DNA of 64,000 nucleotides from Gemmatimonadota bacterium (GTDB lineage Bacteria > Gemmatimonadota > Gemmatimonadetes > Gemmatimonadales > GWC2-71-9), in NCBI GenBank assembly GCA_039591655.1, contig JBDHDE010000005.1, positions 1-64,000 on the forward strand, written 5' to 3'. A program made the translations under genes and the position numbers. The notes beneath the pieces are model-generated. The model was not told where the DNA came from and did not search any database. It saw only the letters and a list, made by a program, of their open reading frames with translations. Positions 2,212 to 21,984 of this stretch are shown one piece after another (the first letter of the stretch is position 1; each line of letters starts with the position of its first letter).

Positions 2212-2307
2212 CGAGACAGCGGCGCGACTACCCGCTGTTCGGGAGTTGATGCGGTCGAGGGAAGAGGGCGCGCATCTTGAGGTAAGACGGAAGAGTCTGC
2301 GACAGGC

Positions 2308-2502
2308 CCTGACTGAGACCCACCGAAGATTGGCCGATCCGTAACTGGCTTGCGTGACGGGGCTTGCGAGGGGTGTGGCGGATCATCTTGCCAGCACCAA
2401 AGGCTGGCGTGTCCACCAGTTGCGCCACGGCCGCGGGTTGGTCAAAACTAAGGTCTAAGCCGTTGGGAGCATAGGGATTCCGCCCGGAGGACGGGGCTTC
2501 TC
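2308..2502. repeat. Partial copy (5' ~195 bp) of a ~570-bp repeat family (block CTGACTGAGACCCACCGAAGATTGGCCGATCCGTAA...GGACGGGGCTTCT)
   Basis: Matches the 5' part of the full copies at 5299-5864 and 16367-16933 block-by-block (e.g. CCGCCACGGCCGCGGGWTGGTCAAAA, GGTCTAAGCCGTTGGGAGCATAGGGATTCCGCCCGGAGGACGGGGCT). Confidence 0.75.
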
Positions 2503-2532
2503 AGACCATTCCGATGCCGACCCGCTCGTGTC

Positions 2533-3864: not shown

Positions 3865-4065
3865 GCTGCTCCTCCGGTTCTCTCGCTCCGGGGGCCGCTG
3901 GAGCCTCTGTGCGTTCGACATAGTGATCTTCAGCCGCCGACTTGGTCCTTGATCATATCGACGCTCCGCGCCCCCGGACGCTCTGTAAGAATACGGCTGG
4001 TAGGCCAACACGGCCAGAAGGCGTCATCGCCCGTGCAGGACGACGCGCGGTGCTGGGATCCGACG

Positions 4066-4104
4066 GACCCAGACTGAGACCCACCGAAGATTGGCCGATC
4101 CGTG
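4066..4104. repeat. Short fragment (5' conserved block only) of the repeat family: CCCAGACTGAGACCCACCGAAGATTGGCCGATCCGT
   Basis: Near-identical to the 5' blocks at 2308, 5314, 12806 and 16384. Confidence 0.7.
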
Positions 4105-5204: not shown

Positions 5205-5298
5205 ACATCGACCATTCGACTCGCATAACTATATGGTCTACAACGGCTTGCGGCGCGCGGCTTGTGGGGCCGGTCCTGTGACAAGAGTTGTTGTACCA

Positions 5299-5864
5299 GG
5301 GGACAGAAGCAGGCCCAGACTGAGACCCACCGAACATTAGCCGATCCGTAAGTGGCTTGCGTGACGGGGCTTATGAGGGGTGTGTCGGGTTATCTTACCA
5401 GCTCCTAAGGCTGGCGCGTCTACCAGTTCCGCCACGGCCGCGGGATGGTCAAAACTCAGGTCTAAGCCGTTGGGAGCATAGGGATTCCGCCCGGAGGACG
5501 GGGCTCCTCGGGGTTCTGGGGCGGGTCCAGGTCGACCTTCAGATGTGGTGTTTTCCCGCACGGTCGGCGGTTTGGTGGGGCATTCTCCTGTATCTCCGCG
5601 GGTCCAGATGCGGGTCCACCTCTACCGAATGTCCCACAACGACACTCGATGCCCCCGAACAGTCCTGGCCGCGCGGCTCTCTGAATTGCAGATTGGCAGG
5701 ACAAAGATCCTCAGGGCCACTCCCCGTCCGCCCAGCGTTTGGGCGGATTAGGCTGCGTGCACGGTATGCGTCCGCTTTCCAGCCTAATCCCAGGGTAGGG
5801 TCGTGTTGTGCTGCGAACCACGCGGCGTTGGGGTGTGGACGATGCAGTCTACTACTAGTTAGGC
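5299..5864 (+). repeat. Full-length copy 1 of the ~570-bp repeat family (5' block GGACAGAAGCAGGCCCAGACTGAGACCCACCGAA ... 3' module GGGCGGATTAGGCTG...CAGCCTAATC...GATGCAGTCTACTACTAGTTAGGC)
   Basis: Aligns block-wise with 16367-16933 (~75-80% identity, conserved blocks separated by variable stretches). The 3' module contains the hairpin GATTAGGCTG/CAGCCTAATC and ends in the attC-like core GTTAGGC (5858-5864). Confidence 0.8.
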
Positions 5865-5925
5865 AGCGGGCGACCGGCCGGCGAGGATCAAGAGTACGTC
5901 ACCCTATCCTTGGAGGACTCCGAAC

Positions 5926-6323: not shown

Positions 6324-6464
6324 CCTAGCACGCGCATGCAGCTGCGGAGGCGCGTGGGATCTAAAGGAAGTTGTGATTGTGCGCCAGGTGAGATCCAGAA
6401 CAGATGGCTTTCCCTGCAGCTGCCGGCCCATCGCGCCCGCAGCTCATGCGCGAAGTCGTTAGGC
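6324..6464 (+). other. attC-like recombination site (141 bp): GCCTAGCacGCGCATGCAGCTGCGG ... CCCGCAGCTCATGCGCgaagtcGTTAGGC
   Basis: The ends are inverted repeats of each other with asymmetric bulges. The 5' core GCCTAGC is near RYYYAAC and the 3' core GTTAGGC is exact GTTRRRY. Lies immediately after the ABM ORF and immediately before the next ORF (ATG 6480). Confidence 0.55.
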
Positions 6465-7184: not shown

Positions 7185-9464
7185 ATGCCCCGCGCACATT
7201 GGGTGGGCATGGCAGACTTTGTGGAACTCCTGCGGGCCGCGCTACGCGGTCGCTACTCGATCGGACGCAAGCTTGGCGAGGGCGGCATGGCTGTCGTCTT
7301 TCTCGCGAAGGACGAGCGGCATGACCGGAGCGTCGCACTCAAGGTGCTCCGGCCGGATCTGGCCTCCGAGGTCGGCGCGGAGCGATTCTTGAGGGAGATC
7401 AAGATCGCGGCCAAGCTGACCCACCCGCACATCCTCCCCCTGTATGACTCCGGCGAGGCCGACGGCTTCCTGTTCTACGTGATGCCCCTCATGGAGGGAC
7501 GGTCGTTACGGGAGCGCGTTGACAAGGAACGGCAGCTTCCACTGGATGAAGCAGTTCGCATCACGCAGGAGGTCGCGTCGGCGCTCGACTACGCGCATCG
7601 CCATGGTGTCATTCACCGGGACATCAAGCCAGCGAACATCTTGCTCCACGAAGGGGCGGCCATGGTGGCCGACTTCGGGATTGGCAAGCTGGTGAGCGCA
7701 GCCGAGGGCAAGATCACACAGACCGGGATGGCAATCGGCACGCCAGCGTACATGAGTCCGGAACAGGCATCTGCGGATTTCGAAGTGGATGGCCGCAGCG
7801 ATCTCTACAGCCTCGGATGCGTCCTGTACGAGATGCTGTCCGGTGAGCCGCCATACACTGGACCCACCGCGCAGGCGGTGATCGCCAAGCGGCTCGGCGC
7901 GCCGGTTCCGCACGTCAAAGTGGTTCGTGACGTCGCCGATCCGGTGGACGCGGTCGTCACGAGGGCGCTCGCGCGCACGCCGGTCGACCGATTTGCCTCA
8001 GCAGCCGAGTTTGCCGCGGCGCTGCGGGATGCACAGAGCGGAACGTTGCATACTCCGGAGGCTGTGCTGGCCGTCGGACAGGCCGGTAGCGATATCAAAT
8101 CCGTTGCGGTGCTGCCGTTCGCCAACTTGAGCGCGGATCCCGAGAACGAGTACTTCAGCGACGGCATGACTGAGGAGATCATCAACGTTCTCGGCAAGGT
8201 ACCGGGCATCCAGGTTGCGTCACGCACGTCGAGTTTCGCCTTCAAGGGTAAGGACGTCGACGTGCGACAGATCGGAGAGAAACTGGGTGTTGGGATCGTG
8301 CTCGAGGGAAGCGTACGCAAGGTGGGCCAGCGGATCCGCATTACCACGCAGCTCACCGATGTCACCAACGGCTACAACCTCTGGAACGAGACGTACGACC
8401 GGCAACTGGAGGACGTGTTCGCCATTCAGGACGAGATCTCCCGAGCGATCGCGGACGCCCTCAAGGTCAAGCTCGTCGGCGATATGGGGAGACGGATGGC
8501 CCCCGCGCCGGAGAACCTCGAAGCGTACAACCTCTACCTAAAAGGACGCTTCTTCTACAACAAGTTCACCGAGGTCGATCTCCGGCGAGGCGTCGAGCTG
8601 TTTGAGCACGCCTTGAAGGAGGCCCCGAAGTATGCTCGTGCCCACGCCGGTATCGCGGACTGTTGGGCCTATCTCGCGGACGATTGGGTGGCCCCAGACG
8701 AGGCGTACCCCAAGGCGAAAGCATCCGCGATGCGCGCGCTCGACCTCGAACCGTCCCTCGGAGACGCGTTCACCGCGCTGGGCAAGGTGCTGTGCTGGTA
8801 CGAGTGGGATTTCGCGGGTGCCGAACGGGAGCTGACGAGTGCGGTGAACCTGAACCCGAACTCGGCCGAAGCGCGCTTTGTCTTGGGCAGCGCGTTGCCG
8901 TGCGTCGGCAAGCTCGACAGGGGACTCGAGGAGCTGCGGCAGGCGCTCGTACTCGATCCGCTCGCCCCGCTGTTCAGTCGGTGGGTGGGCCGCTACCTGC
9001 TCTTCTCGGGCGACTACGACGGCACGATCGAGCAGAGCGAGAAGACGCTGGAGCTGGACCCCAACTACTTCCACTCGTTCCTTGATATCGGCTCCGCCTA
9101 CCTCGGCAAGGGCGCTCCCGAACACGCCCTCGAGTGGTACCGGAAGGGCCAGTCACTGCCGTCCAGCGTCCGCTCGTATGATGCACACCTGGTTCGTGCA
9201 CTTGCGGCCACGGGCCAGCAGGAAGAAGCACAAGCGATCCTCGAGCGGCTCGAAAAGGAGGCTCAGGAGCACTACCTCAGATCTGAAGTGCTCGCGATGG
9301 GCTATGCCGCCGTGGGGGACTTCGATGGGGCGTTCGCCGGCCTCGAGCAGGCAGTTCGGTCGCGCTCGGGAGGGCTCATCTTCATCCACCTGGATCCTGG
9401 CTACGAACCGCTGCGGACGGATGCGCGGTTCGCCAGGATCGTCGAGCAGGTGGGGGTCAGGTAG
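7185..9464 (+). CDS. Ser/Thr protein kinase with C-terminal TM, TolB-N-like region and TPR repeats (complete paralogue of the kinase at 1-2211)
   Basis: Gly-rich loop LGEGGMAVVF, VALK Lys, HRDIKPANILL catalytic loop, DFG, APE (GTPAYMSPEQ). Then LPFANLSADPENEYFSDGMTEEI motif and TPR-like repeats. Confidence 0.85.
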   Translation: MPRAHWVGMADFVELLRAALRGRYSIGRKLGEGGMAVVFLAKDERHDRSVALKVLRPDLASEVGAERFLREIKIAAKLTHPHILPLYDSGEADGFLFYVMPLMEGRSLRERVDKERQLPLDEAVRITQEVASALDYAHRHGVIHRDIKPANILLHEGAAMVADFGIGKLVSAAEGKITQTGMAIGTPAYMSPEQASADFEVDGRSDLYSLGCVLYEMLSGEPPYTGPTAQAVIAKRLGAPVPHVKVVRDVADPVDAVVTRALARTPVDRFASAAEFAAALRDAQSGTLHTPEAVLAVGQAGSDIKSVAVLPFANLSADPENEYFSDGMTEEIINVLGKVPGIQVASRTSSFAFKGKDVDVRQIGEKLGVGIVLEGSVRKVGQRIRITTQLTDVTNGYNLWNETYDRQLEDVFAIQDEISRAIADALKVKLVGDMGRRMAPAPENLEAYNLYLKGRFFYNKFTEVDLRRGVELFEHALKEAPKYARAHAGIADCWAYLADDWVAPDEAYPKAKASAMRALDLEPSLGDAFTALGKVLCWYEWDFAGAERELTSAVNLNPNSAEARFVLGSALPCVGKLDRGLEELRQALVLDPLAPLFSRWVGRYLLFSGDYDGTIEQSEKTLELDPNYFHSFLDIGSAYLGKGAPEHALEWYRKGQSLPSSVRSYDAHLVRALAATGQQEEAQAILERLEKEAQEHYLRSEVLAMGYAAVGDFDGAFAGLEQAVRSRSGGLIFIHLDPGYEPLRTDARFARIVEQVGVR

Positions 9465-9744: not shown

Positions 9745-9804
9745 GCCTAACCCACGCCCGCAGCTGATGCGCGAAGTTGTCAGGCAGAACACAGACCGTT
9801 AGGC
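9745..9804 (+). other. attC-like site (60 bp): GCCTAACccacgCCCGCAGCTGATGCGCGAAGTtgtcaggcagaacacagaccGTTAGGC
   Basis: Exact RYYYAAC (GCCTAAC) and GTTRRRY (GTTAGGC) cores, mutually complementary, at the classic 59-be length. Shares the CCCGCAGCTSATGCGCGAAGT motif with the site at 6324-6464. Confidence 0.6.
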
Positions 9805-10327: not shown

Positions 10328-10449
10328 GGATTAGGCTGCACGCACGTTATGGGCGACAGCTCGCAGCCTGTTGCCGAGGTATGTTTGGTGTTAGACGGAG
10401 TATTCGGCAGGGCGGCAGTACAGATGACTCAGTCTAATACTAGTTAGGC
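10328..10449 (+). repeat. Stand-alone copy of the repeat family's 3' module (GATTAGGCTGC...GCAGCCT hairpin ... GATGACTCAGTCTAATACTAGTTAGGC), attC-like
   Basis: Matches 5746-5864 and 16813-16933. Ends in GTTAGGC (10443-10449); an additional GTTAGAC at 10391-10397. Confidence 0.6.
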
Positions 10450-10507
10450 GGATGCCCGTGCCACTCCGGAGCAGCGCCGACTTCGCTCCCATGCAACCGG
10501 GGCACCT

Positions 10508-12795: not shown

Positions 12796-12838
12796 AGAAA
12801 GCGGGCCCAGACTGAGACCCACCGAAGATTGGCCGATC
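12792..12838. repeat. Fragment (5' conserved block) of the repeat family, starting inside/right after the attC-like 3' core: GGGCAGAAAGCGGGCCCAGACTGAGACCCACCGAAGATTGGCCGATC
   Basis: Near-identical to the 5' blocks at 5299, 16367, 4066 and 2308. Confidence 0.7.
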
Positions 12839-12994
12839 ACCCGGGCTCTCTTTCTGAAGGGAGCTGCGGTACTGAAGCTCAAGGTGGCACAGCGCCCGGC
12901 CCCATGCCGGGCGCTGTTGTTTCCGGTCCAAGAATCCCGACGAGTGCTCGCCTTCACACACCAGTCGGCGCGGGCAAACCTCGCCTCTCGCGCT

Positions 12995-13960
12995 TCAGTT
13001 CGTGATCGTCGCCGTTCCGGTCGGCAAGGGACTCAAGGCGGTGATCGTCCGCTGGTCCGTCGGCCCACCATCGCCAAATGGATTCCCAAACGGCTTGAGT
13101 TGAAACGGTACGGCCGCGAGCGTCGCCTCGCCTTCGTCGAACGTGGGTTCGATCGAGATTACGTGCATCCACTCGCTGTCGCCGGTCACCTGGTCGTCCC
13201 CATTGAAGTCGAAGGGAAGCGCAATACCCCCGGGCACTGTATTTCCGTTGTCCATCACGAAGTCTCCGCCGGGGAAGGGTGGGCCGGCGCCCAAATCACC
13301 GGGCGCACCCGACAACGGCCCGGCGGCGTCACTGTCCCGTGTGCTCACCGTGCCGCCCGCCTGAGGCTCGTACTTACCGTAGGAGATGGCAGTCTGCATG
13401 GCGGTACCCGGCCTGTGAACGACCCAACCCTCGTAGACCCAACCGTCGGTGAGCGGTGGAAGCGTGACTGATGGGTCGGGTGCGCCGGAGGGATCGAGCA
13501 GCCAGATGCCCCCGTCGTCATCGCTGCCGGTCGTGGTAGTCGGCGTCAGCAGCACGTGGGTGCCCGGGGTCGTCGCGAAGTCGGCCGAACTGCTCACAGT
13601 GACGAACCCGAGGGCCGAAAGCGTCGCCATCCCGCTGGAGAACGCTCCGCCCAGGAGCTTCTGATCGGATGGGATGTCGTCAGTGTCGCCAGGCGGTTCG
13701 ACAGTGAGCACGAACATCATGGGCTCGGCGATCGGACTGGTGAACGTGTGCTGCCCGGAGGCTTCGAGATCGAACTTGCCCGTCGAGAACGGCGATCCAC
13801 TCGCGTCGATGACCCAACCTTCGTACGTACCCTCGGTCGCCGCGTCGAGGGCTGCGAGATCTTGGAACGCGACGTCGAGCGTCGCCATCTCTGGTCCTTC
13901 GTCTCCGCAGGCGACGAGTGCCGCGATCGCGAGGACGCCGACGTATCGCTTGAGCAACAT
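12995..13960 (-). CDS. Hypothetical lipoprotein (lipobox LVAC), Gly/Asp/Thr-rich secreted protein
   Basis: Signal peptide MLLKRYVGVLAIAALVACGDEG. SD GGAGGT 6 nt upstream of ATG. Confidence 0.5.
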   Translation of the reverse strand: MLLKRYVGVLAIAALVACGDEGPEMATLDVAFQDLAALDAATEGTYEGWVIDASGSPFSTGKFDLEASGQHTFTSPIAEPMMFVLTVEPPGDTDDIPSDQKLLGGAFSSGMATLSALGFVTVSSSADFATTPGTHVLLTPTTTTGSDDDGGIWLLDPSGAPDPSVTLPPLTDGWVYEGWVVHRPGTAMQTAISYGKYEPQAGGTVSTRDSDAAGPLSGAPGDLGAGPPFPGGDFVMDNGNTVPGGIALPFDFNGDDQVTGDSEWMHVISIEPTFDEGEATLAAVPFQLKPFGNPFGDGGPTDQRTITALSPLPTGTATITN

Positions 13961-14040
13961 GGGTTACCTCCGCACGAGATGAGAGTGTACGGAGGAAGCT
14001 GGTTTGGGCGCGACAGTGTTTGAAGGGAAGACTCCGAAGG

Positions 14041-14054
14041 TTAGAGCTTTCTAA
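14041..14054. promoter_or_regulatory. Palindromic box TTAGAGCTTTCTAA (copy 1), ~85 bp upstream of the lipoprotein gene and just downstream of the HK stop
   Basis: Exact 14-mer also at 16191-16204 upstream of the response-regulator gene. Extended here to GGTTAGAGCTTTCTAACC (7-bp arms). Confidence 0.45.
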
Positions 14055-14061
14055 CCTGCCT

Positions 14062-15465
14062 TTAATCTCCGGCCGGAAGCCAAAGCACGAAACGACTGCC
14101 TTTGTTCGGCGTGCTCTCCACCGATATGCTTCCGGCTTGGAGCTGTGCGAGCATGCGGGCGATGGTGAGACCCAAGCCCGCACCTCCGTGGGCACGACTG
14201 CGCGATCCCTCCACCCGTTCGAAGCGGTCGAAGACTCGGTCGAGGTCGTTCTCCGCAATCCCTACACCGGTGTCCGTGACGGAGACTCCGACCATGCCGT
14301 CCCTCCGCTGGAGCTCGAATAGGATGCTCCCCCTTGAGGTGTAGCGGACTGCGTTGGACGCCAGGTTCAAGAGGATTTGCCGCGTGCGATCGGCGTCACC
14401 GAGCGCCTCCGCGGAGTCTGTGAGGTCGGCCTTCACATCGATGTCGCGCCCCGATGCCATCGCTTGGGTTACTTCCTCCACATCCCGCGCGACTTCGGCG
14501 AGATCGAACGGCTGCAGCGCGAGCTCGAGCTGCTGGTTCTCACCACGAGCGATGAGGAGCAGGTCCTCGATCATCTTCGTTGTCTGATCGACCTCGCGCG
14601 CAATCTCCCCAAGTGCCTCACGCATCTCTTCGAGCGACCGGTGCTCAGCTAGCGCCCACTGGGCTTGCGCACGCAGATGTGTGAGTGGCGTTCGCAGTTC
14701 GTGACTCGCGTCTGCGGTGAATGCCTCGAGGGCAGCATTGGCTCGCTCCACGCGGGCGATCAGACGATTGATCTCGTCGGCCAGCTGGGTGACCTCGGTC
14801 AGACCCGTAGGGCTGGTGACTCGCTCAGAGAGATCCCGCGGATCGATCTGTTGCGTCTCTTCGACTGTCCGCGCGAATGGGATGAGCGCCGCGAGGATCG
14901 TGCGGCGCGTTGCGCGCTGTGCGACTAACGCTGCCGCTGGCAGGAGTGCGAGGGCCACGATACCCAGGCCGAGCATCGCAACCAGGTATGGGACTCGACT
15001 GCCGGCGACGAAGATGTCGAAGTCGCCCGCACGCCGATGGCCGACCCGGTAACGCCATCGACCGCGCTCGGCGATCACGGTCACCAGCTGCCGCCGCACC
15101 TGGTTGTGTGACGCATCCGGTGCCACTCGGACCTCTTTAGCCGGCATCGTCGGCGACAGGAAGTACACGGTGCGGTCGCCTCCCTCGGTCGCTATGGCGC
15201 GAGTGATCAGAAAGGGTTCGCTCATCTCCAAGAGCTGATCCGCCAGCATAGCCGGGGCGACGGACGTGCGCTCCCCGCCGGGATCCGCGTACAGCCCCAG
15301 GAGCGACTGAACGACGTCGGCGGAGTGATCGAGCGCCCGGCGGAGCGAGAGTTCACTCACCAATGCCGAGGCGCCGATCACGATGACTGCGTACACGATG
15401 AGGGTGTGCCAGAGGACGCGGCTCAAGCTCGCAGCCAGCCGTTGACGGAGGCGAGGTTCCATCAT
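14062..15465 (-). CDS. Sensor histidine kinase (HAMP + HisKA + HATPase_c), 2 TM
   Basis: H-box FTADASHELRTPLT, N/G boxes (LNLASNAVRYT, DTGVGI, GGAGLGL). Start at ATGATG overlapping the RR stop (ATGATGA). Confidence 0.8.
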   Translation of the reverse strand: MMEPRLRQRLAASLSRVLWHTLIVYAVIVIGASALVSELSLRRALDHSADVVQSLLGLYADPGGERTSVAPAMLADQLLEMSEPFLITRAIATEGGDRTVYFLSPTMPAKEVRVAPDASHNQVRRQLVTVIAERGRWRYRVGHRRAGDFDIFVAGSRVPYLVAMLGLGIVALALLPAAALVAQRATRRTILAALIPFARTVEETQQIDPRDLSERVTSPTGLTEVTQLADEINRLIARVERANAALEAFTADASHELRTPLTHLRAQAQWALAEHRSLEEMREALGEIAREVDQTTKMIEDLLLIARGENQQLELALQPFDLAEVARDVEEVTQAMASGRDIDVKADLTDSAEALGDADRTRQILLNLASNAVRYTSRGSILFELQRRDGMVGVSVTDTGVGIAENDLDRVFDRFERVEGSRSRAHGGAGLGLTIARMLAQLQAGSISVESTPNKGSRFVLWLPAGD

Positions 15466-16136
15466 GTCGCCTCCAGCCGATAGCCCACCCCGCGCACGGT
15501 GCGGATTCTCGCTCCCGCCGTGTGGAGATCGAGTTTCTTTCTCAAGTAGTTGATGTACACGTCCACCACGTTCGTCTCCGGGTCGAAGTGGTAGTCCCAC
15601 ACGGCTTCGGCGATGCGCGATCGGGAGACCGTGCGGCCGGCGTTTCGCATCAAGAACTCGAGGAGCGCCAACTCGCGGGGGCTCAAGTCGACGGTGCGGT
15701 CGGCGCTCGAGACACGCCGCTGTAACGTATCCACTCGTAGCTGTCCGACTTCGAGTGTCGTGTCCCGATGCCGTAGCTTGGCGCGCCGAATCAGGGCAAC
15801 GATGCGAGCCATGAGTTCGGGAAGATCGAACGGCTTGGTCAGGTAATCATCCGCACCGCCTTCCAGGCCGCGGACCCGATCGTCGAGATCGTGGCGTGCA
15901 GTGAGGAGCAGAATCGGCGTCGTCACGCCTCGCTGCCGCAGCTCGGCCACGACGCTGAACCCGTCGCGCCCCGGCAGCATCACATCAAGCACGATGCAGG
16001 CGTAGTCGCCTTTCAACGCGCGGTCGAGCCCCCGGTCACCGGATTCCGCGTAATCAACGGCGTAACCCTCTTCACGCAACGCCTTGCGCAGAAACGCGCG
16101 CAGGTTTCGGTCGTCTTCCACCAACAGAATCTTCAT
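15462..16136 (-). CDS. OmpR-family response regulator (REC + winged-helix)
   Basis: MKILLVEDD...DVMLPGRDG receiver, with C-terminal trans_reg_C (LSPRELALLEFLMRNAGRTVSRSRIAEAVW...GVGYRL). Confidence 0.85.
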   Translation of the reverse strand: MKILLVEDDRNLRAFLRKALREEGYAVDYAESGDRGLDRALKGDYACIVLDVMLPGRDGFSVVAELRQRGVTTPILLLTARHDLDDRVRGLEGGADDYLTKPFDLPELMARIVALIRRAKLRHRDTTLEVGQLRVDTLQRRVSSADRTVDLSPRELALLEFLMRNAGRTVSRSRIAEAVWDYHFDPETNVVDVYINYLRKKLDLHTAGARIRTVRGVGYRLEAT

Positions 16137-16190
16137 GAGTAAGGAAGGTAGGACTCTGCTCGGGGCCAGGGCAACGGCGAGAGCCCTCGA

Positions 16191-16204
16191 TTAGAGCTTT
16201 CTAA
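16191..16204. promoter_or_regulatory. Palindromic box TTAGAGCTTTCTAA (copy 2), ~60 bp upstream of the RR-HK operon
   Basis: Exact 14-bp match to 14041-14054. Both copies sit in promoter-proximal positions of minus-strand genes. Confidence 0.45.
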
Positions 16205-16366
16205 TGACTGGAAGCGGAAGGGAGCTGTGGTGCTCTCAACCGTCCGTCGCAACCCGCACCAACAACTGGTAATCGGGAAGCCCGCTATGTTGGCCCGAGT
16301 CTGCGTCTCATAAGCGCCAGCGCTAGCTACCGGTCATGGGGTGCCGTAGCGGGAGCTATCCTGCCG

Positions 16367-16933
16367 GGGGACAGAAGCGGGCCCAGACTGAGACCCACCG
16401 AAGATTCCCCAATTCGTAAGTCGCCTTCCTGAAGGGGTTTGCGAGGGCTTGGGCGGCTCTGCAGACCAGCTCCTAAGGCTGGCGCGTCTACCAGTTTCGC
16501 CATGGCCGCGGGATGGTCAAAAGTAATGTCTAAGTCGTTGTGGCCATAGTGGTTCTGCCCAAAGGACGGGGCTTCTGGGGGTCCTGGGGCGGGTCGTCGA
16601 TCCGCAGATGTGCTGTCTTCCCGTACGGTCGGCGGTTTTGCAGGGCATTCTCCCGTATCTCCGCGGGTCCAGATGGCGGGTCCACTGCGTCGAAGGTCCC
16701 AGATCAGGCACACGGTGCCCCCGAACAGTCCTGGCCACGCGGGTTTCCGAATCGCAGATTGGCAGGACGGAGATCTCCACGATCGCTCCCTGTCCACGTA
16801 GCGCATGGGCGGATTAGGCTGCAAGCGGAATGGGCTGGGGTGCTCGCAGCCTTATCCCGGCGGAGGTTCACGTTAGGCTGCGCGCGGTGCGCCAGTGGGG
16901 GAGGGAAAGATGCAGTCTACTACGAGTTGGGCG
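16367..16933 (+). repeat. Full-length copy 2 of the ~570-bp repeat family, ending in attC-like cores (GTTAGGC at 16873-16879, GTTGGGC at 16927-16933)
   Basis: Block-wise alignment to 5299-5864: GGGACAGAAGCGGGCCCAGACTGAGACCCACCGAAGATT, CCAGCTCCTAAGGCTGGCGCGTCTACCAGTT, GCATTCTCCYGTATCTCCGCGGGTCCAGATG, CCCCCGAACAGTCCTGGCC, GCAGATTGGCAGGAC, GGGCGGATTAGGCTGC, GATGCAGTCTACTAC. Confidence 0.8.
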
Positions 16934-16944
16934 GCGGGGGTCAG

Positions 16945-17463
16945 TTGAGCGGTACCGCACATCTCAAGGAGCCGATCGCCTGCACTGAGGGGGAGCGCCG
17001 GGAGTTCGCGCGTCTTGTTCGCCAAGGTTTTGAGACCGCGGCTGAGGACTTGGATGGCCGCATTCGTGATGCGGAATGGCTTGCGTTCCATTACGCGGAA
17101 GGCAACACGCTCGCGGCGGTCGCCGCCCTAAAGGCGCCCAACGTACGGTATCGGGACAACGTCTTCAAGAAGGCGGACGCACCCGTCAGCCCTGCTGCTT
17201 ACAAGCTCGAACTTGGCTGGGTCTTCGTCATTCCTGCCCACCGAGGGAACCGGATTGCCGAGAGTCTTTGCCAGCTGCTTTTGGCGCGCGTGCCTACGTC
17301 CTGTGTTTTTGCGACGACCCGCCCGAACAACATCTCCATGATTAGCATCCTTCTCGCCCTCGGCTTTGCGCGAGTCGGCAAGCCGTATCCCCACCGCAAC
17401 GAAGAGCTTGTACTATTCTTGCGGTCGTGGCCGCTCTTCGTGGCGCCAGGCCCCGCCGCCTAA
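16945..17463 (+). CDS. GNAT-family N-acetyltransferase (non-ATG start; 5' end uncertain); putative cassette
   Basis: C-terminal GNAT core LGWVFVIPAHRGNRIAESLCQLLLARVPTSCVFATTRPNNISMISILLALGF (motif A region). There is no in-frame ATG, so the start is probably the TTG near 16945. The ORF-track start at 16540 runs through the repeat and is rejected. TAA stop is embedded in GCCTAAC. Confidence 0.45.
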   Translation: MSGTAHLKEPIACTEGERREFARLVRQGFETAAEDLDGRIRDAEWLAFHYAEGNTLAAVAALKAPNVRYRDNVFKKADAPVSPAAYKLELGWVFVIPAHRGNRIAESLCQLLLARVPTSCVFATTRPNNISMISILLALGFARVGKPYPHRNEELVLFLRSWPLFVAPGPAA

Positions 17464-17492
17464 CCCGCAGCTGATGCGCAGAGCCATTAGGC
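17458..17492 (+). other. Short attC-like palindrome GCCGCCTAACccgcagctgatgcgcagagccATTAGGCGGC (degenerate)
   Basis: GCCTAAC core overlapping the GNAT stop; arms GCCGCCTAA/TTAGGCGGC. Shares the CCGCAGCTGATGCGC motif with other sites. The 3' core is ATTAGGC (one mismatch) and the site is shorter than a typical attC. Confidence 0.35.
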
Positions 17493-17537
17493 GGCTAACC
17501 ATGAACACTCTTCCTCACTGAGTGCGGAACGTCCAAG

Positions 17538-18434
17538 ATGCCGAGTATAAGAAGCCGGATTGTCCGTCTGTTTCTCAGGTATCAGATCTGGAAGGCTGAC
17601 AAGAACGCCACTTTGCAGCAACGACGGGCGACCCTTGAAGATGCCGCACGGCGTCTGCCAATGCCACGTCGCGTAGATGTGCAGCAGACTACTGTTGGAG
17701 AGACCCCTGCCGAGTGGCTTCGGCCTGCCGACACCACTGACAACCGGGCGATTCTGTACTTGCATGGTGGTGCCTACACGATGGGGTCGTGCACAACCCA
17801 TCGGGCCCTGGCATCTCGTATTGCTGTCGCTAGCAAGGCTCCTGCACTGCAACCCGAGTATCGCCTTGCGCCTGAGCATCCATTCCCGGCTGCTCTTCAG
17901 GATTGTGTGGCTGCTTATCGCTGGCTGCTCGACTACGGAATTCCACCACAGAAGACAGTTGTCGCGGGCGACTCGGCTGGAGGTGGTCTGGCTCTAGCCC
18001 TGGCTGTCACGCTTCGCGACGACTATGTCCCACTCCCGGCCGCAATCGTTTGCATGTCGCCGTGGGCCGATCTTGAGCTGACAGGCCAATCGCTTAGGAC
18101 CCGCGCGAATGTCGATCCCGTCTGTAGCCTGGAGGAAAGCCAGTTTCATGCGGGCCAATATGTTGGGAAGAACGATCCCCGGGCGGCACTCATTTCACCC
18201 ATCTATGCGGACCTACGTGGCCTGCCGCCAGTACTCATCCATGTCGGCGACAGAGAGATTCTGTTGAGTGATGCGATGCGACTGGCAGAACGTGCTCGTG
18301 AAGATGGGGTTGATGTAGAGCTGAAGATCTGGGAGGGCATGTGGCATGTTTGGCATCTGCTCGCCGGGTACGTGCCGGAAGGTCGACAAGCGGTTGACGA
18401 AATCGGTGCTTTCATCAGCAAATACACAGACTGA
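17538..18434 (+). CDS. Alpha/beta hydrolase fold-3 esterase/lipase (HSL family); putative cassette
   Basis: HGGAY oxyanion motif and GDSAGG nucleophile elbow. C-terminal Asp/His consistent with the catalytic triad. Confidence 0.75.
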   Translation: MPSIRSRIVRLFLRYQIWKADKNATLQQRRATLEDAARRLPMPRRVDVQQTTVGETPAEWLRPADTTDNRAILYLHGGAYTMGSCTTHRALASRIAVASKAPALQPEYRLAPEHPFPAALQDCVAAYRWLLDYGIPPQKTVVAGDSAGGGLALALAVTLRDDYVPLPAAIVCMSPWADLELTGQSLRTRANVDPVCSLEESQFHAGQYVGKNDPRAALISPIYADLRGLPPVLIHVGDREILLSDAMRLAERAREDGVDVELKIWEGMWHVWHLLAGYVPEGRQAVDEIGAFISKYTD

Positions 18435-18450
18435 GGCGGCCGTGGCAGCC

Positions 18451-18478
18451 GCCCAACAGGCGCATGAAGCTGCGGGGA
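18451..18478 (+). other. Truncated attC-like half-site GCCCAACaGGCGCATGAAGCTGCGGGG (R''/L'' arm only)
   Basis: RYYYAAC core plus the family motif (reverse complement of CCCGCAGCTCATGCGC). No matching 3' arm is seen, which could mark the distal end of the array. Confidence 0.3.
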
Positions 18479-18609
18479 CTTGAAACTTCCATGCCGGATC
18501 GCTCGTCTTTCCTATTAATTAGCAGAGACCCGTTAACTGGTAGAGGTCCGGCTCCCGAGAGTTCCGGGCCCGCCATACTCCAAGCTGAAACACCACTGGA
18601 GGCAGACGG

Positions 18610-20376
18610 ATGAAGTCCCATTTCGGGCTCGTGATGCTCGCCCTGGTTTCCACGCCGGCGGCGGCACAGACCGATACCCTGGTTGGCATCCAGGACCTCT
18701 CGGCGCGAGAGCATAGGATGCAGTCTTTCGTGCTTCCCCGCGCGCAGCAGCTGCAGGTAGAGGCCGTGGGAGGCGAGCCGCGGGGCATGAGCGCCTTCGA
18801 GCGGTTCCTGAAGCACGGCATCTTCATGAACAGGCACCGAGAGGACTTGGGGGACGTGTGGCCGGCGAACGCCTGGATTCTGGATGCCGGGACGCGGCGG
18901 GTGGTGTGGGAGCTGCGCACCGCGCCGACGCGGGAGAAAGGAGGCGGACTCCGCATGTTCGAGGGGACGCTCCAGCTGCAGGCTGGGGCGTACGAGGTGC
19001 ACTACGCGGCCCTCTACCCGGTCGCGGGGTTCGCTGGCGATGGGGATGACTGGCGCGCGCGAGGCTGGGACACGGTTTCCGACCTCGAGGGGCCGTATCT
19101 GGACGACGACCGCTATCGCGAATTCGGGATCGTGATCCGCGGGATGGGGTCGCGCGGCGCCGAGGGGGTGGCTGCGGAGGAGGGCGCTGCCGGGCCGCTC
19201 GTGGCGCTCAAGGGAGCGCAGGGCGAGGCGCGGGAACGGGTGGGCTTCGCGCTGGCGCGCACTACCGCGGTCGAGATCCGGGCGCTGGGTGAGGAGGTGG
19301 GCGATGAGTGGTTCGACTACGGTTGGATCGACGACGCGGCCTCCGGAGAGACGGTGTGGACCTTTGGCGACGGAGCAGTGAGCCACGCTGGTGGGGCGAA
19401 GAAGAACCGGGTGGTGACGGACCGGGTCACCCTGCCTGCGGGGCGCTACCTCGCCCATTATGTCACCGACGATTCTCACCAGGCGGGAGGTTGGAGCCAG
19501 GCCCCGCCCTACGACCCCTCGGCCTGGGGCCTCACGATTCGCGCGATCGACGCCGCCGCGGCCGCGCACGTCACGACGTTCCAGCACCAGCCCTTCCCCG
19601 CCGCCGCCGCCGTGATTGCGCTCACGGCTCTGGGTGACCGTGAGCTCGAGGCCCAACCATTCGTCGTCGAACGCCCGCTGGAGATCCGAATCTTCGCGCT
19701 GGGCGAAGGAACAGGTGAGATGCACGATTACGGCTGGATCGTGGACGGTGCGGGACGTGCGATCTGGCGGATGGAGTACAGCGAGACGCGAAGCGCGGGA
19801 GGCGCCACCAAGAACCGCCTGTTCGATGGCACCATGCGCCTCGAGCCCGGCAGTTACACCGCCTATTTCATGACCGACGGCTCCCACTCGTTCGGGGGCG
19901 GCTTCAACGCATCCAGGCCGTTCGACGCAGAGCACTGGGGCATGACCATCCTCCCGGCAAACGGCGCCACGAAGCAGGACTTCGTTTTGGAGCAAGCGGA
20001 CAAGCCCGACCCATCCGTCCTCGCCCGGATCGTCAAGGTGGGCGATGGGCGGCGGGAGGAGGCGCGGTTCCGCCTCACGCGGGACGGGAGCGTTCGGGTC
20101 CTGGCCATCGGCGAGGGGAGCGGCGAGATGTACGACTACGCCTGGATCGAGAACGCCGCGGGCAGCGTGGTGTGGCGCATGACGTACGAAGGGACCGAAC
20201 ACGCCGGCGGCGCTACCAAGAACCGGCGGGTGGACGAGGTGATCAGCCTCCCGGCGGGCGAGTACACAGTGCGTTACCGGAGCGACGGCTCGTACTCGTT
20301 CCGGGATTGGGACGCGGATCCGCCGGACGATCCGTTGAGTTGGGGGGTGACGGTGTCCAGGGTAGGAGGAGGCTAG
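18610..20376 (+). CDS. Secreted protein made of four tandem ~125-aa repeats of unknown function
   Basis: Signal peptide MKSHFGLVMLALVSTPAAAQ. Four repeats share A(L/I)GEG.GEM(Y/H)DYGWI..A.G..VW.M.Y..T..AGGA(K/T)KNR......L.AG.Y...Y.(T/S)DGS.S...W....P.D...WG.T(I/V). Confidence 0.6.
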   Translation: MKSHFGLVMLALVSTPAAAQTDTLVGIQDLSAREHRMQSFVLPRAQQLQVEAVGGEPRGMSAFERFLKHGIFMNRHREDLGDVWPANAWILDAGTRRVVWELRTAPTREKGGGLRMFEGTLQLQAGAYEVHYAALYPVAGFAGDGDDWRARGWDTVSDLEGPYLDDDRYREFGIVIRGMGSRGAEGVAAEEGAAGPLVALKGAQGEARERVGFALARTTAVEIRALGEEVGDEWFDYGWIDDAASGETVWTFGDGAVSHAGGAKKNRVVTDRVTLPAGRYLAHYVTDDSHQAGGWSQAPPYDPSAWGLTIRAIDAAAAAHVTTFQHQPFPAAAAVIALTALGDRELEAQPFVVERPLEIRIFALGEGTGEMHDYGWIVDGAGRAIWRMEYSETRSAGGATKNRLFDGTMRLEPGSYTAYFMTDGSHSFGGGFNASRPFDAEHWGMTILPANGATKQDFVLEQADKPDPSVLARIVKVGDGRREEARFRLTRDGSVRVLAIGEGSGEMYDYAWIENAAGSVVWRMTYEGTEHAGGATKNRRVDEVISLPAGEYTVRYRSDGSYSFRDWDADPPDDPLSWGVTVSRVGGG

Positions 20377-20419
20377 AGCCCCACAGGCGGAGACACCTGT
20401 TGTGAGCTGGAAGTGGCGC

Positions 20420-20551
20420 ATGGCCCCGGCGCTGGCAATTGCCGGATGGTTCGTTACCGGATTGGTCGGAACTCCACTGTGGGGCTCTGCGATTGGCGCT
20501 GTCTGCGGCTGGCTGGTTGGCTGGTACCTGGGGCGGGAATACCTGGATTGA
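20420..20551 (+). CDS. Small (43 aa) glycine-zipper membrane protein, paralogue of 9555-9716
   Basis: Hand translation: MAPALAIAGWFVTGLVGTPLWGSAIGAVCGWLVGWYLGREYLD. Confidence 0.35.
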   Translation: MAPALAIAGWFVTGLVGTPLWGSAIGAVCGWLVGWYLGREYLD

Positions 20552-20598
20552 CGCCTTCTGAGGGCGACGCGGAGCATCTACCACAGGGAGGTTCCCAA

Positions 20599-20766
20599 GT
20601 GCGGGATATCATCGCGGGTGTGGTTCTGATCGCGATCGGTCTATTCTTTGGCGGGTCCGTCTTCTTGGGTGATTTCAGCCTATTCAACCTCATCTTCGAC
20701 GGCCTCGGGACGTTCTTCATCATCAAGGGTCTTATTGCTGTCTACAAGAGCAAACAGGCGTCCTGA
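20599..20766 (+). CDS. Small (55 aa) two-TM membrane protein, GTG start with SD GGGAGG
   Basis: VRDIIAGVVLIAIGLFFGGSVFLGDFSLFNLIFDGLGTFFIIKGLIAVYKSKQAS. SD GGGAGG 8 nt upstream. The ORF-track start at 20413 is rejected because it overlaps the preceding small ORF in another frame. Confidence 0.4.
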   Translation: MRDIIAGVVLIAIGLFFGGSVFLGDFSLFNLIFDGLGTFFIIKGLIAVYKSKQAS

Positions 20767-20772
20767 CCGCAG

Positions 20773-21984
20773 ATGACCGGATCTTCAGCAACCGAGTTGC
20801 CGTTAAGCGGGTACCGGGTGCTCGATCTTTCCCGGATACTCGCCGGCCCATACTGCACCATGATTCTCGGGGATCAGGGCGCCGAGGTGATCAAGGTGGA
20901 GCGGCCTGACTCCGGCGACGACACGCGGAGCTGGGGACCTCCCTTCGCCGGCGGCGAGAGCGCTTACTACCTCTGCTGCAACCGAAACAAGAAGTCCATT
21001 GCCGTCGACCTCAAGCACCCCTCGGGCGCTGAGCTGGTGCGCGAGCTGGCCAAGGTCTCCGACGTCCTGGTCGAGAATTTCACCCCGGGACTCACGCAGC
21101 GCTTCGGGCTGGACTACGAGACGCTCCGGGGCATTAATCCCCGGCTCGTGTACGCGTCCATCACCGCGTACGGGCAAGACGGCCCCTACCGGGATAGGCC
21201 GGGCTACGACATGGTGCTCTCCGCCGTCGGAGGGCTCATGTGGATCACCGGCGAGCGGGACGGGAACCCGTGCAAGGTGGGTGTGGCGATCACCGACGTG
21301 CTCACCGGCATCTATGCGTCGGGGGCGATCACCGCAGCGCTGCTGTGGCGGGAGCGCTCCGGCCGGGGCCAATACCTCGACATCAGTCTGCTCGACGCCC
21401 AGGTCTCCGCGCTCGCCAACATCGCCAGCAATTACCTAGTCGCGGGTCAGGAAGCGACGCGCTGGGGCACGGCCCACGAATCCATCATTCCCTATCAGGT
21501 GTTTCGCACCAAGGACCGGCCGATCGCCATCGCCGTGGCGAATCAGAAGCTGTGGGTCAACTTCTGCAAACTGGTCGGCAGGCCGCAGTGGCTGGAGGAT
21601 CCGCGGTTCGAGTCCAACCCCAAGCGGGTCGAGCACCGCGAGGTGCTCCTTCCGCTCATCGACGAGCTGATGGCCCAGCGGACGTGTGACGAGTGGATGG
21701 AAGTGTTCGTGGAAGCGGCGATCCCGTGCGGTCCAGTCAACGACATGGAACATCTCTTCGCTGACCCGCAGGTGCTGCACCGGGCCATGATCGCCGAAGT
21801 GCCGCACCCGACGATCGGGTCCCTCCGTCTCACTGGGACGCCGATCAAGTACTCAGAGACACCCGCAACCATCCGCCGCCATCCACCGCTCCTCGGCGAG
21901 CACACCGACGAGGTCTTGGCCGAGGTGCTGGAGTATCAGCCCGAGAGAATCGAGGCCCTCAGACAACAGCGCGCCATTCTGTAG
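20773..21984 (+). CDS. CoA-transferase family III (CaiB/BaiF/Frc-like) protein
   Basis: N-terminal LSGYRVLDLSRILAGPYCTMILGDQGAEVIKVERP...RNKKSIAVDLK is the family III CoA-transferase signature. Confidence 0.8.
   Translation: MTGSSATELPLSGYRVLDLSRILAGPYCTMILGDQGAEVIKVERPDSGDDTRSWGPPFAGGESAYYLCCNRNKKSIAVDLKHPSGAELVRELAKVSDVLVENFTPGLTQRFGLDYETLRGINPRLVYASITAYGQDGPYRDRPGYDMVLSAVGGLMWITGERDGNPCKVGVAITDVLTGIYASGAITAALLWRERSGRGQYLDISLLDAQVSALANIASNYLVAGQEATRWGTAHESIIPYQVFRTKDRPIAIAVANQKLWVNFCKLVGRPQWLEDPRFESNPKRVEHREVLLPLIDELMAQRTCDEWMEVFVEAAIPCGPVNDMEHLFADPQVLHRAMIAEVPHPTIGSLRLTGTPIKYSETPATIRRHPPLLGEHTDEVLAEVLEYQPERIEALRQQRAIL

What the first reader, a model, noticed from the sequence alone, without database searches (positions are those of the whole stretch)
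12995..16204. Exact 14-bp palindromic box TTAGAGCTTTCTAA upstream of both a two-component operon and an adjacent lipoprotein gene
Seen: the identical 14-mer occurs at 16191-16204 (about 60 bp upstream of the OmpR-family RR start; RR and HK are translationally coupled via ATGATGA) and at 14041-14054. The second copy is extended to GGTTAGAGCTTTCTAACC, lies between the HK stop and the lipoprotein gene, and is about 85 bp upstream of the lipoprotein ATG. A 14-bp exact repeat is not expected by chance in 64 kb. Both copies are promoter-proximal to minus-strand genes. Inference: this is an autoregulatory RR box defining a mini-regulon (the TCS plus a Gly/Asp-rich lipoprotein). Alternatively the boxes are recombination scars bracketing an inserted 2.15-kb TCS module that interrupts the attC array.
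Basis: seen in the sequence. Interest (0 to 1): 0.5.

Follow-up and report, generated by a model that had tools for sequence, protein, structure and literature searches.

The report
Response-regulator operator shared by two promoters
The repeated 14-bp box is most likely the DNA site where this two-component system's own regulator binds, to control both its own operon and the neighbouring lipoprotein gene. This is a well-supported but ordinary piece of bacterial wiring, with a slightly unusual operator sequence.

Summary
TTAGAGCTTTCTAA occurs exactly twice in 64 kb, at 14041-14054 and 16191-16204, with none expected by chance.

It is an imperfect palindrome, not a perfect one. On the gene strand it reads TTAGA-AAGC-TCTAA, and the copy upstream of the response regulator (RR) extends to a perfect 6-4-6 repeat, ATTAGA-N4-TCTAAT.

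- Six non-redundant RR orthologues (75-88% identical) keep the box 52-54 nt before the RR start.
- Orthologues of the lipoprotein (LP) keep it 75-80 nt before their start, even where no two-component system is adjacent.
- The arms are about 93% conserved, while the spacer and flanks are about 50%.
- No compensatory changes, hairpin stability or U-tract point to an RNA element.
- In 1.37 Mb of fetched loci the strict pattern occurs 12 times, always upstream of these genes.

The box has the geometry of the CopR/CusR/AgrR "copper box" (ATKACA-N4-TGTMAT). It carries G/C where that box has its critical C/G, and the RR recognition helix differs to match (YINY versus A-I/V-K/R-R).

The "recombination scar" alternative is not supported. 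The real repeats bracketing the module are tRNA-Leu-derived elements.

No binding experiment exists. I class it as a new member of a known kind, of modest interest.

The parts
16190..16205 (-). Operator of the RR-HK operon. It is a perfect-armed 6-4-6 inverted repeat, ATTAGA-AAGC-TCTAAT on the gene strand, and contains the reported 14-mer at 16191-16204.
   Evidence: Conserved with 0-1 arm mismatches, 52-54 nt upstream of the RR start, in L165, L161, L167, L164, L171 and L169.
16169..16174 (-). Inferred -35-like hexamer TTGCCC, 16 nt downstream of the 14-mer box.
   Evidence: (G/T)TTGCC is conserved at the same distance in all RR-orthologue promoters. This is an inference; the sigma-70 consensus scan did not call it.
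16145..16150 (-). Inferred -10-like hexamer TACCTT. It lies 18 nt after TTGCCC and 8 nt before the RR ATG, which implies a leaderless or near-leaderless mRNA.
   Evidence: CTA(C/A/G)CTT is conserved at the same position in the orthologues. This is an inference.
15462..16136 (-). OmpR/PhoB-family response regulator, 224 aa, with recognition helix ...NVVDVYINYLRKKL.
   Evidence: Pfam Response_reg plus Trans_reg_C. The best NCBIfam model is TIGR01387 (heavy-metal RR) at 234.6 bits, below its 279.2 cut-off.
14062..15465 (-). Sensor histidine kinase. Its ATG overlaps the RR stop (ATGA).
   Evidence: Pfam HisKA plus HATPase_c. Best NCBIfam model TIGR01386 at 219.6 bits, cut-off 292.55. The N-terminus is conserved in orthologues.
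14039..14056 (-). Operator of the lipoprotein promoter, GG-TTAGAAAGCTCTAA-CC on the gene strand. It contains the reported 14-mer at 14041-14054.
   Evidence: Conserved upstream of LP orthologues in L165, L161, L162, L082, L081, L171 and L180, and upstream of a lactonase-like gene in L170.
14060..14065 (-). Extra half-site TTAAAG, a direct repeat 11 bp upstream of the first arm. It overlaps the HK stop codon.
   Evidence: TTAGAG, TTAAAG, TTAGCA (L165) or TTAGGC lies at -11 in all nine target-class sites. That includes L162 and L180, where no HK gene is adjacent, and L170, where the HK stop lies elsewhere.
14019..14024 (-). Inferred -35-like hexamer TTCAAA of the LP promoter, 16 nt downstream of the box. 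This is the same spacing as at the RR promoter.
   Evidence: CTTCAA(A/T)C is conserved in the window, L165, L161 and L162. This is an inference.
13996..14001 (-). Inferred -10-like hexamer CAGCTT of the LP promoter, after a 17-nt spacer. It is followed by a 35-nt leader carrying a GGAGG ribosome-binding site at 13967-13971.
   Evidence: (C/G)A(G/C)CTT is conserved at the same position in L165, L161, L162 and L170. This is an inference.
12995..13960 (-). Lipoprotein, 321 aa, with lipobox LVAC and an RskA_C-like beta-sandwich domain. It is the putative regulated output.
   Evidence: Pfam RskA_C, E = 5e-9. 128 homologues found. In the AlphaFold2 model only the N-terminal domain is confident.
12799..12841 (+). 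Context only: D2 repeat copy on the LP side of the module.
16375..16417 (+). Context only: D2 repeat copy on the RR side of the module. It is part of a repeat of about 600 bp that carries a 5' half of tRNA-Leu(TAG) on the minus strand at about 16466-16509.

Best explanation
The two boxes are operators for the response regulator (RR) encoded at 15462-16136.

Proposed mechanism:
- The phosphorylated RR binds as a symmetric, head-to-head dimer to the 6-4-6 inverted repeat ATTAGA-N4-TCTAAT.
- The repeat is centred about 58 bp upstream of the inferred transcription start, immediately upstream of the -35 region, at two promoters.
- Binding at its own promoter gives autoregulation of the RR-HK operon, most likely positive.
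- Binding at the second promoter induces the downstream RskA_C-type lipoprotein (LP).
- At the LP-type promoters a third half-site lies 11 bp upstream in direct orientation. It may recruit a further protomer or allow head-to-tail binding.

What is shown: the sequence, its conservation, its fixed geometry, and its co-occurrence with the RR and LP genes.

What is inferred: that this RR is the binding protein, the direction of regulation, the -35/-10 assignments and the leaderless RR mRNA. The signal sensed by the kinase is unknown.
For: 1. Exact duplication that chance does not explain.

2. Footprinting at RR promoters. In six non-redundant orthologous RR promoters (75-88% protein identity) the arms are 94% conserved, against about 50% for spacer and flanks, at a constant 52-54 nt from the start codon. 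A near-identical seventh locus, L165 (95%), carries the same box.

3. Footprinting at target promoters. In eight non-redundant target promoters the arms are 93% conserved. L162 and L180 keep the box although no two-component system is adjacent. L170 has it in front of a different downstream gene, a lactonase-like protein.

4. Specificity of location. In 178 fetched loci (1.37 Mb) the strict TTAGA-N4-TCTAA pattern occurs 12 times, all upstream of RR or LP genes.

5. Shared geometry. In the window and its closest relatives both promoter classes run box, 16 nt, -35-like hexamer, 17-18 nt, -10-like hexamer.

6. Family precedent. The RR's best family model is the heavy-metal RR model. Members of that clade bind 16-bp 6-4-6 inverted repeats, ATKACA-N4-TGTMAT, sometimes with an extra in-phase direct-repeat half-site, and autoregulate positively (PMC7380067). 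The E. coli cusR-cusC spacer contains ATGACAATTTTGTCAT.

7. A distant RR with the same box. The Mucilaginibacter RR in L046 is only 45% identical but has the same recognition-helix motif DVYINYLR. It carries two tandem TTAGAA-NN-TTCTAA boxes 61 and 81 nt before its start.

8. The contrast class. RRs with a CusR-like helix (DVA[VI][KR]RLR) in L067 and L073 carry classical ATKACA boxes.
Against: - There is no binding or expression experiment.
- Most OmpR-family regulators bind direct rather than inverted repeats.
- The RR and HK score below the NCBIfam heavy-metal cut-offs, so the analogy with CopR/CusR/AgrR rests on a sister-group relationship.
- The consensus sigma-70 scan finds no promoter in this region, and the -10-like hexamers are poor matches to TATAAT.
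- The L170 RR promoter has a degenerate right arm.
- LP orthologues in L163 and L179 lack the box and sit next to an ECF sigma factor instead, so the RR-LP link is not universal.
- The link between recognition helix and box rests on few loci and is confounded by GC content.
Confidence: 0.75

Rival explanations
1. The box is a genuine operator, but for a different transcription factor encoded elsewhere. Its position next to this two-component system would then be incidental or reflect co-regulation by a third party.
For: No direct binding data exist. The palindromic 5-4-5 or 6-4-6 architecture is also typical of many dimeric helix-turn-helix regulators. LP orthologues carry the box without an adjacent two-component system (L162, L180).
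Against: The box sits at the same distance upstream of the RR gene in every orthologous operon examined, whatever the flanking genes are. No other regulator gene is consistently nearby. The architecture matches that of the RR's closest characterised clade. A distant RR sharing the recognition helix also shares the box.
Confidence: 0.12
2. The boxes act at the RNA level. The extended copy GGUUAGAAAGCUCUAACC would form a hairpin after the HK stop and serve as a terminator, attenuator or processing site between HK and LP.
For: The window copy can form an 8-bp stem with a 4-nt loop just after the HK stop. The local fold is -17.7 kcal/mol.
Against: - The fold z-score is only -1.64, and +0.12 for the RR copy.
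- No U-tract is present and no terminator was called.
- In L161 and L162 the minimum-energy fold does not use the box as a hairpin.
- Variation among orthologues sits in the spacer and in unpaired-equivalent flanks. It includes arm mismatches without compensation, such as TCCAA in L161 and TGAGA in L171, L081 and L180.
- The RR copy lies upstream of the inferred promoter, so it is probably not transcribed with the operon.
Confidence: 0.04
3. The boxes are recombination scars or target-site duplications left by insertion of the 2.15-kb RR-HK module.
For: The two copies are exact, in direct orientation, and flank RR-HK. Presence of the two-component system next to LP varies between genomes (L161 versus L162). 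The region lies in a repeat-rich, apparently variable segment.
Against: - Each box is conserved on its own in genomes that have only the two-component system (L164, L167, L169) or only LP (L162, L180), at a fixed promoter-proximal distance.
- Arm conservation with spacer drift over 66-88% protein identity is the signature of selection, not of a scar.
- In L162 the sequence upstream of the single box is unrelated to the RR-upstream flank of L161, so this is not a box-to-box deletion.
- The unit shared with the 91%-identical locus L165 is the whole RR-HK-LP block, 12980-16217, with both boxes inside it.
- The bracketing repeats are D2 / tRNA-Leu-derived sequences, not the boxes.
Confidence: 0.03

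Closest known systems
AgrR/CopR/CusR/PcoR/HprR 'copper box' operators of heavy-metal OmpR-family response regulators (ATKACA-N4-TGTMAT)
   Same: - A 16-bp 6-4-6 imperfect inverted repeat lying just upstream of the promoter.
- Present in the regulator's own promoter (autoregulation) and in the adjacent target promoter.
- An optional additional in-phase direct-repeat half-site (PMC7380067; E. coli cusR-cusC spacer).
- The RR's best NCBIfam model is this clade's model.
   Different: - Position 5 of each half-site is G here and C there, with the symmetric partner C here and G there. This is exactly the transversion that nearly abolished AgrR-dependent activation.
- The recognition helix reads DVYINYLR instead of DVA(V/I)(K/R)RLR.
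- RR and HK score below the family cut-offs.
- No metal-handling gene is adjacent. The output is an RskA_C-like lipoprotein.
- The box centre, inferred at about -58, is further upstream than the class II position proposed for AgrR.
CovR (CsrR) of streptococci and its ATTARA motif
   Same: The half-site ATTAGA matches ATTARA. The ATTARA motif is documented in PMC8893699. From my own recollection, not checked here, the CovR recognition helix (NVVDVYIRYLR) is nearly identical to this RR's.
   Different: CovR sites are AT-rich, numerous and best modelled as tandem head-to-tail repeats with a 5-bp spacer, and CovR is mainly a repressor. Here the sites are two isolated palindromes in a 63% GC background. 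This is a resemblance only; membership was not tested.
Generic positively autoregulated OmpR/PhoB two-component operons such as PhoBR and PhoPQ
   Same: The RR and HK genes overlap and are probably translationally coupled. There is an operator upstream of their own promoter and a small local regulon.
   Different: Those regulators use direct repeats with a 10-11 bp period. This one uses an inverted repeat, with a direct-repeat half-site added only at the target promoters.

Membership tests
OmpR/PhoB-family response regulator | N-terminal receiver domain plus C-terminal winged-helix Trans_reg_C domain | tested here: met
   Pfam PF00072 (100.3 bits) and PF00486 (96.8 bits), both above their cut-offs.
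Heavy-metal response regulator subfamily (NCBIfam TIGR01387 cztR_silR_copR) | Score at or above the curated cut-off of 279.2 bits | tested here: not met
   It is the best-scoring family, but at 234.6 bits. The nearest plasmid-borne 'heavy metal response regulators' are about 50% identical.
Heavy-metal sensor kinase subfamily (NCBIfam TIGR01386 cztS_silS_copS) | Score at or above the curated cut-off of 292.55 bits | tested here: not met
   It is the best-scoring family, but at 219.6 bits, and only residues 173-465 align, so the periplasmic sensor domain is not covered.
CopR/CusR/AgrR-type operator (copper box) | 16-bp 6-4-6 inverted repeat located promoter-proximally, including in the regulator's own promoter | tested here: met
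   ATTAGA-AAGC-TCTAAT at 16190-16205, conserved in orthologues. The architecture is as described in PMC7380067.
CopR/CusR/AgrR-type operator (copper box) | Consensus ATKACA-N4-TGTMAT with the highly conserved, symmetric C and G | tested here: not met
   All sites here have G and C at those positions. The same swap nearly abolished AgrR activation.
CopR/CusR/AgrR-type operator (copper box) | Specific binding by the cognate phosphorylated or unphosphorylated RR | not testable with these tools
   Requires EMSA, footprinting or DAP-seq.
Intrinsic (rho-independent) terminator | GC-rich stem-loop followed by a U-tract | tested here: not met
   No terminator called in 12900-16400. The stem is AT-rich and the tail reads UUCGGAGUC. 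The fold is not better than shuffled sequence.
Integron attC recombination site, or recombination scar | A 50-150 bp imperfect palindrome with R''(RYYYAAC) and R'(GTTRRRY) cores at cassette boundaries | tested here: not met
   The box is 14-18 bp and lacks both cores. It is conserved as a promoter element in non-array contexts. attC-like palindromes do exist elsewhere in the window, for example 17455-17497.

The most novel reading that the evidence does not exclude
ATTAGA-N4-TCTAAT together with a DVYINYLR recognition helix may define a separate, mutually insulated specificity branch of the palindrome-binding CopR/CusR-type response regulators. It would be present in both Gemmatimonadota-like lineages and Bacteroidota (Mucilaginibacter). 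A single symmetric base-pair swap would keep it orthogonal to classical copper-box systems. Its conserved output would be an RskA_C-like lipoprotein that different genomes wire either to this two-component system or to an ECF sigma factor. That lipoprotein could be a periplasmic stress effector or a feedback partner of the kinase.
Probability: 0.35. Interest if true: 0.45.

Novelty: new member of a known kind. Interest (0 to 1): 0.3.

Why it matters
The finding gives a testable operator, a promoter model and a minimal regulon for an uncharacterised two-component system. Close homologues of the RR are abundant in metagenomes: 6130 proteins at E <= 1e-40, many of them 73-95% identical.

The operator differs from the well-studied copper box at exactly the base pair shown experimentally to be essential there. 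This pair of systems is therefore a natural case for studying how response-regulator DNA specificity diverges and how cross-talk is avoided.

The system also links a family of RskA_C-type lipoproteins of unknown function to envelope signalling.

None of this overturns current understanding.

Tried and rejected
- Genome-collection scan with the RR. It was saturated by the generic DDYLTKPF pattern and returned only 40-54% identical paralogues. These served only as a contrast set (L046, L067, L073).
- Metagenome scan with the LP alignment. It returned mostly 33-42% homologues. Few of them are next to a two-component system, and none carries the strict box.
- Rfam at gathering and E-value thresholds. 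Nothing was found for the boxes or the repeats.
- tRNA scan of the window. None found.
- Terminator and promoter consensus scans. None found.
- AlphaFold2 model of LP (mean pLDDT 57) and Foldseek against PDB (no hit with E <= 0.001). Neither gave a functional clue.
- Grouping 80 distant RRs by recognition-helix quartet against upstream TTAGA counts. The result is suggestive for YINY and YISY but rests on small numbers and is confounded by GC content, so it is not used as main evidence.
- Best plasmid hit, Paraburkholderia. It has a different helix (LVCR) and no box, so it is uninformative.
- Search for an integron integrase among larger ORFs of the window. None found.
- Folding and coding tests of the repeat of about 260 nt. 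It is not unusually stable, shows no convincing covariation and is non-coding.
Full report
**Observation.** The 14-mer TTAGAGCTTTCTAA is present at 14041-14054 and 16191-16204 on the + strand. It occurs nowhere else in the window, even allowing two mismatches, and none of 100 dinucleotide-preserving shuffles gave a match. The arms-only pattern TTAGA-N4-TCTAA with one mismatch also finds only these two sites, against 0.15 expected.

All three genes concerned are on the minus strand:
- an OmpR-family response regulator (RR, 15462-16136);
- a histidine kinase (HK, 14062-15465);
- a lipoprotein (LP, 12995-13960) with a lipobox and a Pfam RskA_C domain.

On the gene strand the box reads TTAGAAAGCTCTAA. 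It is an imperfect palindrome: 5-bp arms around a non-symmetric centre. At the RR copy the arms extend to a perfect 6-4-6 repeat, ATTAGA-AAGC-TCTAAT (16190-16205). At the LP copy they extend to GGTTAGA...TCTAACC. The gaps between box and start codon are 54 nt (RR) and 80 nt (LP). The RR stop overlaps an HK ATG (ATGA). The N-terminus encoded from that start (M-x-EPRL...) is conserved in orthologues.

**Comparative evidence.** Two broad collection scans were largely wasted, because generic peptide patterns saturated them. Exact-protein look-ups then recovered orthologous loci.

Upstream of RR orthologues, the box is present with 0-1 arm mismatches and a constant 52-54 nt gap to the start codon. 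This holds in L165 (95% identical RR), L161 (88%), L167 (84%), L164 (78%), L169 (75%) and L171. L170 (76%) has a degenerate right arm.

Upstream of LP orthologues (66-87% identical), the box is present in L165, L161, L162, L082, L081, L171 and L180. Two points matter here:
- L162 and L180 have LP with the box but no adjacent two-component system.
- L164, L167 and L169 have the two-component system with the box but no adjacent LP.
So each box is maintained independently of the other.

In L170 a box follows the HK stop in front of a different gene, a lactonase-like beta-propeller.

In a non-redundant set of 6 RR promoters and 8 target promoters, the arm columns are 93-94% conserved. The two central positions and the flanks are about 50% conserved. 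Arm changes are not compensated (TCCAA in L161; TGAGA in L171, L081 and L180). That pattern fits a protein-binding site and not an RNA helix.

Across all 178 fetched loci (1.37 Mb), the strict pattern occurs 12 times, every time upstream of an RR or LP gene.

**Promoter geometry (inferred).** Both promoter classes show the same layout.
- RR class: box, 14-17 nt (16 in the window), (G/T)TTGCC, about 17-18 nt, CTA(C/A/G)CTT, about 8 nt, ATG. This predicts a leaderless or near-leaderless RR mRNA.
- LP class (window, L165, L161, L162): box, 16 nt, CTTCAA(A/T)C, 17 nt, (C/G)A(G/C)CTT, then a leader of about 30 nt with GGAGG.

The box would therefore be centred near -58, just upstream of the -35 region. 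This position fits activation better than repression. These hexamers are poor matches to the E. coli sigma-70 consensus, and the consensus scan called nothing. The assignment rests on conservation only.

All nine target-class sites have a further half-site (TTAGAG, TTAAAG, TTAGCA or TTAGGC) exactly 11 bp upstream of the first arm, in direct orientation. In the window it overlaps the HK stop codon (14060-14065). It persists in L162 and L180, where no HK gene is present, and in L170, where the stop lies elsewhere. It is therefore probably part of the site.

**RNA alternative.** The window's LP copy can fold into a short hairpin (-17.7 kcal/mol for the local 56-nt fold), but the z-score is only -1.64. 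The RR copy scores +0.12. The orthologous L161 and L162 regions do not fold the box as a hairpin. There is no U-tract.

**Comparison with known systems.** The RR's best NCBIfam model is the heavy-metal RR subfamily (TIGR01387) and the HK's is TIGR01386. Both score below the curated cut-offs, so they are relatives and not members.

For that clade, the AgrR study reports the following (PMC7380067):
- a 16-bp 6-4-6 imperfect inverted repeat, ATKACA-N4-TGTMAT;
- positive autoregulation;
- near-complete loss of activation when the conserved symmetric C and G are swapped to G and C.

I confirmed the classical box in the E. coli cusR-cusC spacer, ATGACAATTTTGTCAT. The box here, ATTAGA-N4-TCTAAT, has the same geometry and carries exactly that swap.

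The recognition helix differs in step. This RR and all its orthologues read DV-Y-(I/V)-N-Y-LR. E. coli CusR reads DVAVKRLR.

Among the distant RRs fetched:
- The Mucilaginibacter RR in L046 is 45% identical. It is followed by an HK, an outer-membrane efflux protein and a CusB/HlyD-type fusion protein. It has the DVYINYLR helix and two tandem TTAGAA-NN-TTCTAA boxes 61 and 81 nt upstream of its start.
- L073 and L067 have DVAIRRLR-type helices and carry classical ATKACA-N4-TGTMAT boxes upstream.

This small contrast set agrees with the idea that the helix and operator position 5 changed together. A broader grouping of helices against half-site counts is confounded by GC content and is not relied on.

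The half-site also matches the streptococcal CovR motif ATTARA (PMC8893699). That is a resemblance only.

**Function of the output and the signal.** LP has an RskA_C-like N-terminal beta-sandwich. The AlphaFold2 model is otherwise of low confidence (mean pLDDT 57), and structure search found no significant match.

In L163 and L179 the LP orthologue lacks the box. It sits next to a divergently transcribed ECF sigma factor (with an anti-sigma gene in L163) and has a GGAAT...CTGTTC-type upstream element. In L179, mercuric-reductase-like and HMA-domain genes lie about 2.5 kb away. This suggests an envelope-stress type of output that can be wired to either kind of extracytoplasmic signalling system.

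The ligand is unknown. The HK periplasmic domain is conserved among orthologues but did not align to the heavy-metal sensor model.

**The "inserted module" alternative and genomic context.** Nucleotide homology between the window and the 91%-identical locus L165 covers exactly 12980-16217. That span runs from 13 nt upstream of the RR box to 15 nt past the LP stop, and the flanks are unrelated. More distant loci also start to align at the box. The transferable or conserved unit is therefore the whole self-contained block: box, promoter, RR-HK, box, promoter, LP. The boxes are its functional ends, not scars.

The segment is bracketed in the window by two copies of a different 43-nt repeat, D2, at 12799-12841 and 16375-16417. 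D2 has five copies between 2.3 and 16.4 kb. Three copies belong to longer repeats which, read on the minus strand, contain the upstream region and 5' half of a tRNA-Leu(TAG) gene. L165 carries an intact tRNA-Leu(TAG) 1.1 kb downstream of the same module.

No intact tRNA and no integrase were found in the window. Short attC-like palindromes exist elsewhere, for example at 17455-17497. The module therefore lies in a variable, tRNA-Leu-associated region. This explains why its neighbourhood differs between close relatives, but it has nothing to do with the 14-bp boxes.

**Verdict.** Direct binding, the direction of regulation and the signal remain untested. This is a new member of a known kind of system: an autoregulated OmpR-family two-component operon with a local target. 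Its operator is a single-position specificity variant of the copper box. Interest is modest.

Noticed in passing
window 2265-2520, 5272-5870 and 16340-16938 (long copies); 4061-4103 and 12799-12841 (short copies): A repeat family with a 43-nt core, D2 (GGCCCAGACTGAGACCCACCGAAGATTGGCCGATC), in five direct copies. On the minus strand the three long copies contain the upstream region and 5' half (acceptor, D arm and anticodon arm, anticodon TAG) of a tRNA-Leu gene. This is followed by about 55 nt of unrelated sequence and then D2, which loosely resembles a variable arm and T arm. The window has no intact tRNA and no 3' half. The repeats are non-coding, not unusually stable and have no Rfam match. 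They may be remnants of serial integration at tRNA-Leu, or a tRNA-derived repeat family.
   Followed up: partly
L165 10234-10315 and 5874-5911, compared with window 12980-16217: The 91%-identical RR-HK-LP module of a sister contig from the same metagenome series lies in a completely different neighbourhood (TonB-dependent receptor, DUF5916, PP2C). An intact tRNA-Leu(TAG) lies 1.1 kb downstream, and a fragment of the tRNA-derived repeat abuts its upstream end. The module seems to have moved as a unit within tRNA-Leu-associated variable regions.
   Followed up: partly
window about 9745-9790, 17455-17497, 6434-6464, 5827-5870, 10412-10455 and 16895-16938: Short imperfect palindromes of the form GCCGCCTAAC...(G/A)TTAGGCGGC, and shared sequences ending in ...ACTAGTTAGGC. 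They lie between small unrelated genes (ABM monooxygenase, methyltransferase, two glyoxalase-like genes, GNAT, alpha/beta hydrolase). They look like attC sites, with RYYYAAC and GTTRRRY cores, but no integron integrase was found among the window ORFs tested.
   Followed up: partly
L163 4886-5000 and L179 782-896: LP orthologues (68% identical) that lack the box sit next to a divergent ECF sigma factor (with an anti-sigma gene in L163). They share an upstream GGGAATA(A/T)TC...GGCTGTTC element resembling an ECF-type promoter. In L179, mercuric-reductase-like and HMA-domain genes are nearby. The same lipoprotein family seems to be wired alternately to a two-component system or to an ECF sigma factor.
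   Followed up: partly
L161, L162 and L167 (ATP synthase neighbourhood): Three related genomes share the context NAD_binding_2 gene plus the atp operon. They differ just upstream: esterase, RR, HK, LP (L161); esterase, RR, HK with no LP (L167); DUF2339, LP with no two-component system (L162). The two-component system and LP are gained or lost independently at one chromosomal position.
   Followed up: no
window 18434-20773: A stretch of about 2.3 kb with long overlapping ORFs on both strands (588 aa on +, 720 aa on -). Neither ORF has a Pfam match.
   Followed up: no
window 19-2211 and 7185-9464: Two Ser/Thr protein kinase-TPR genes within the repeat-rich segment. Further kinase-like matches occur at about 43.4-44.0 kb and 47.3-47.6 kb.
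   Followed up: no
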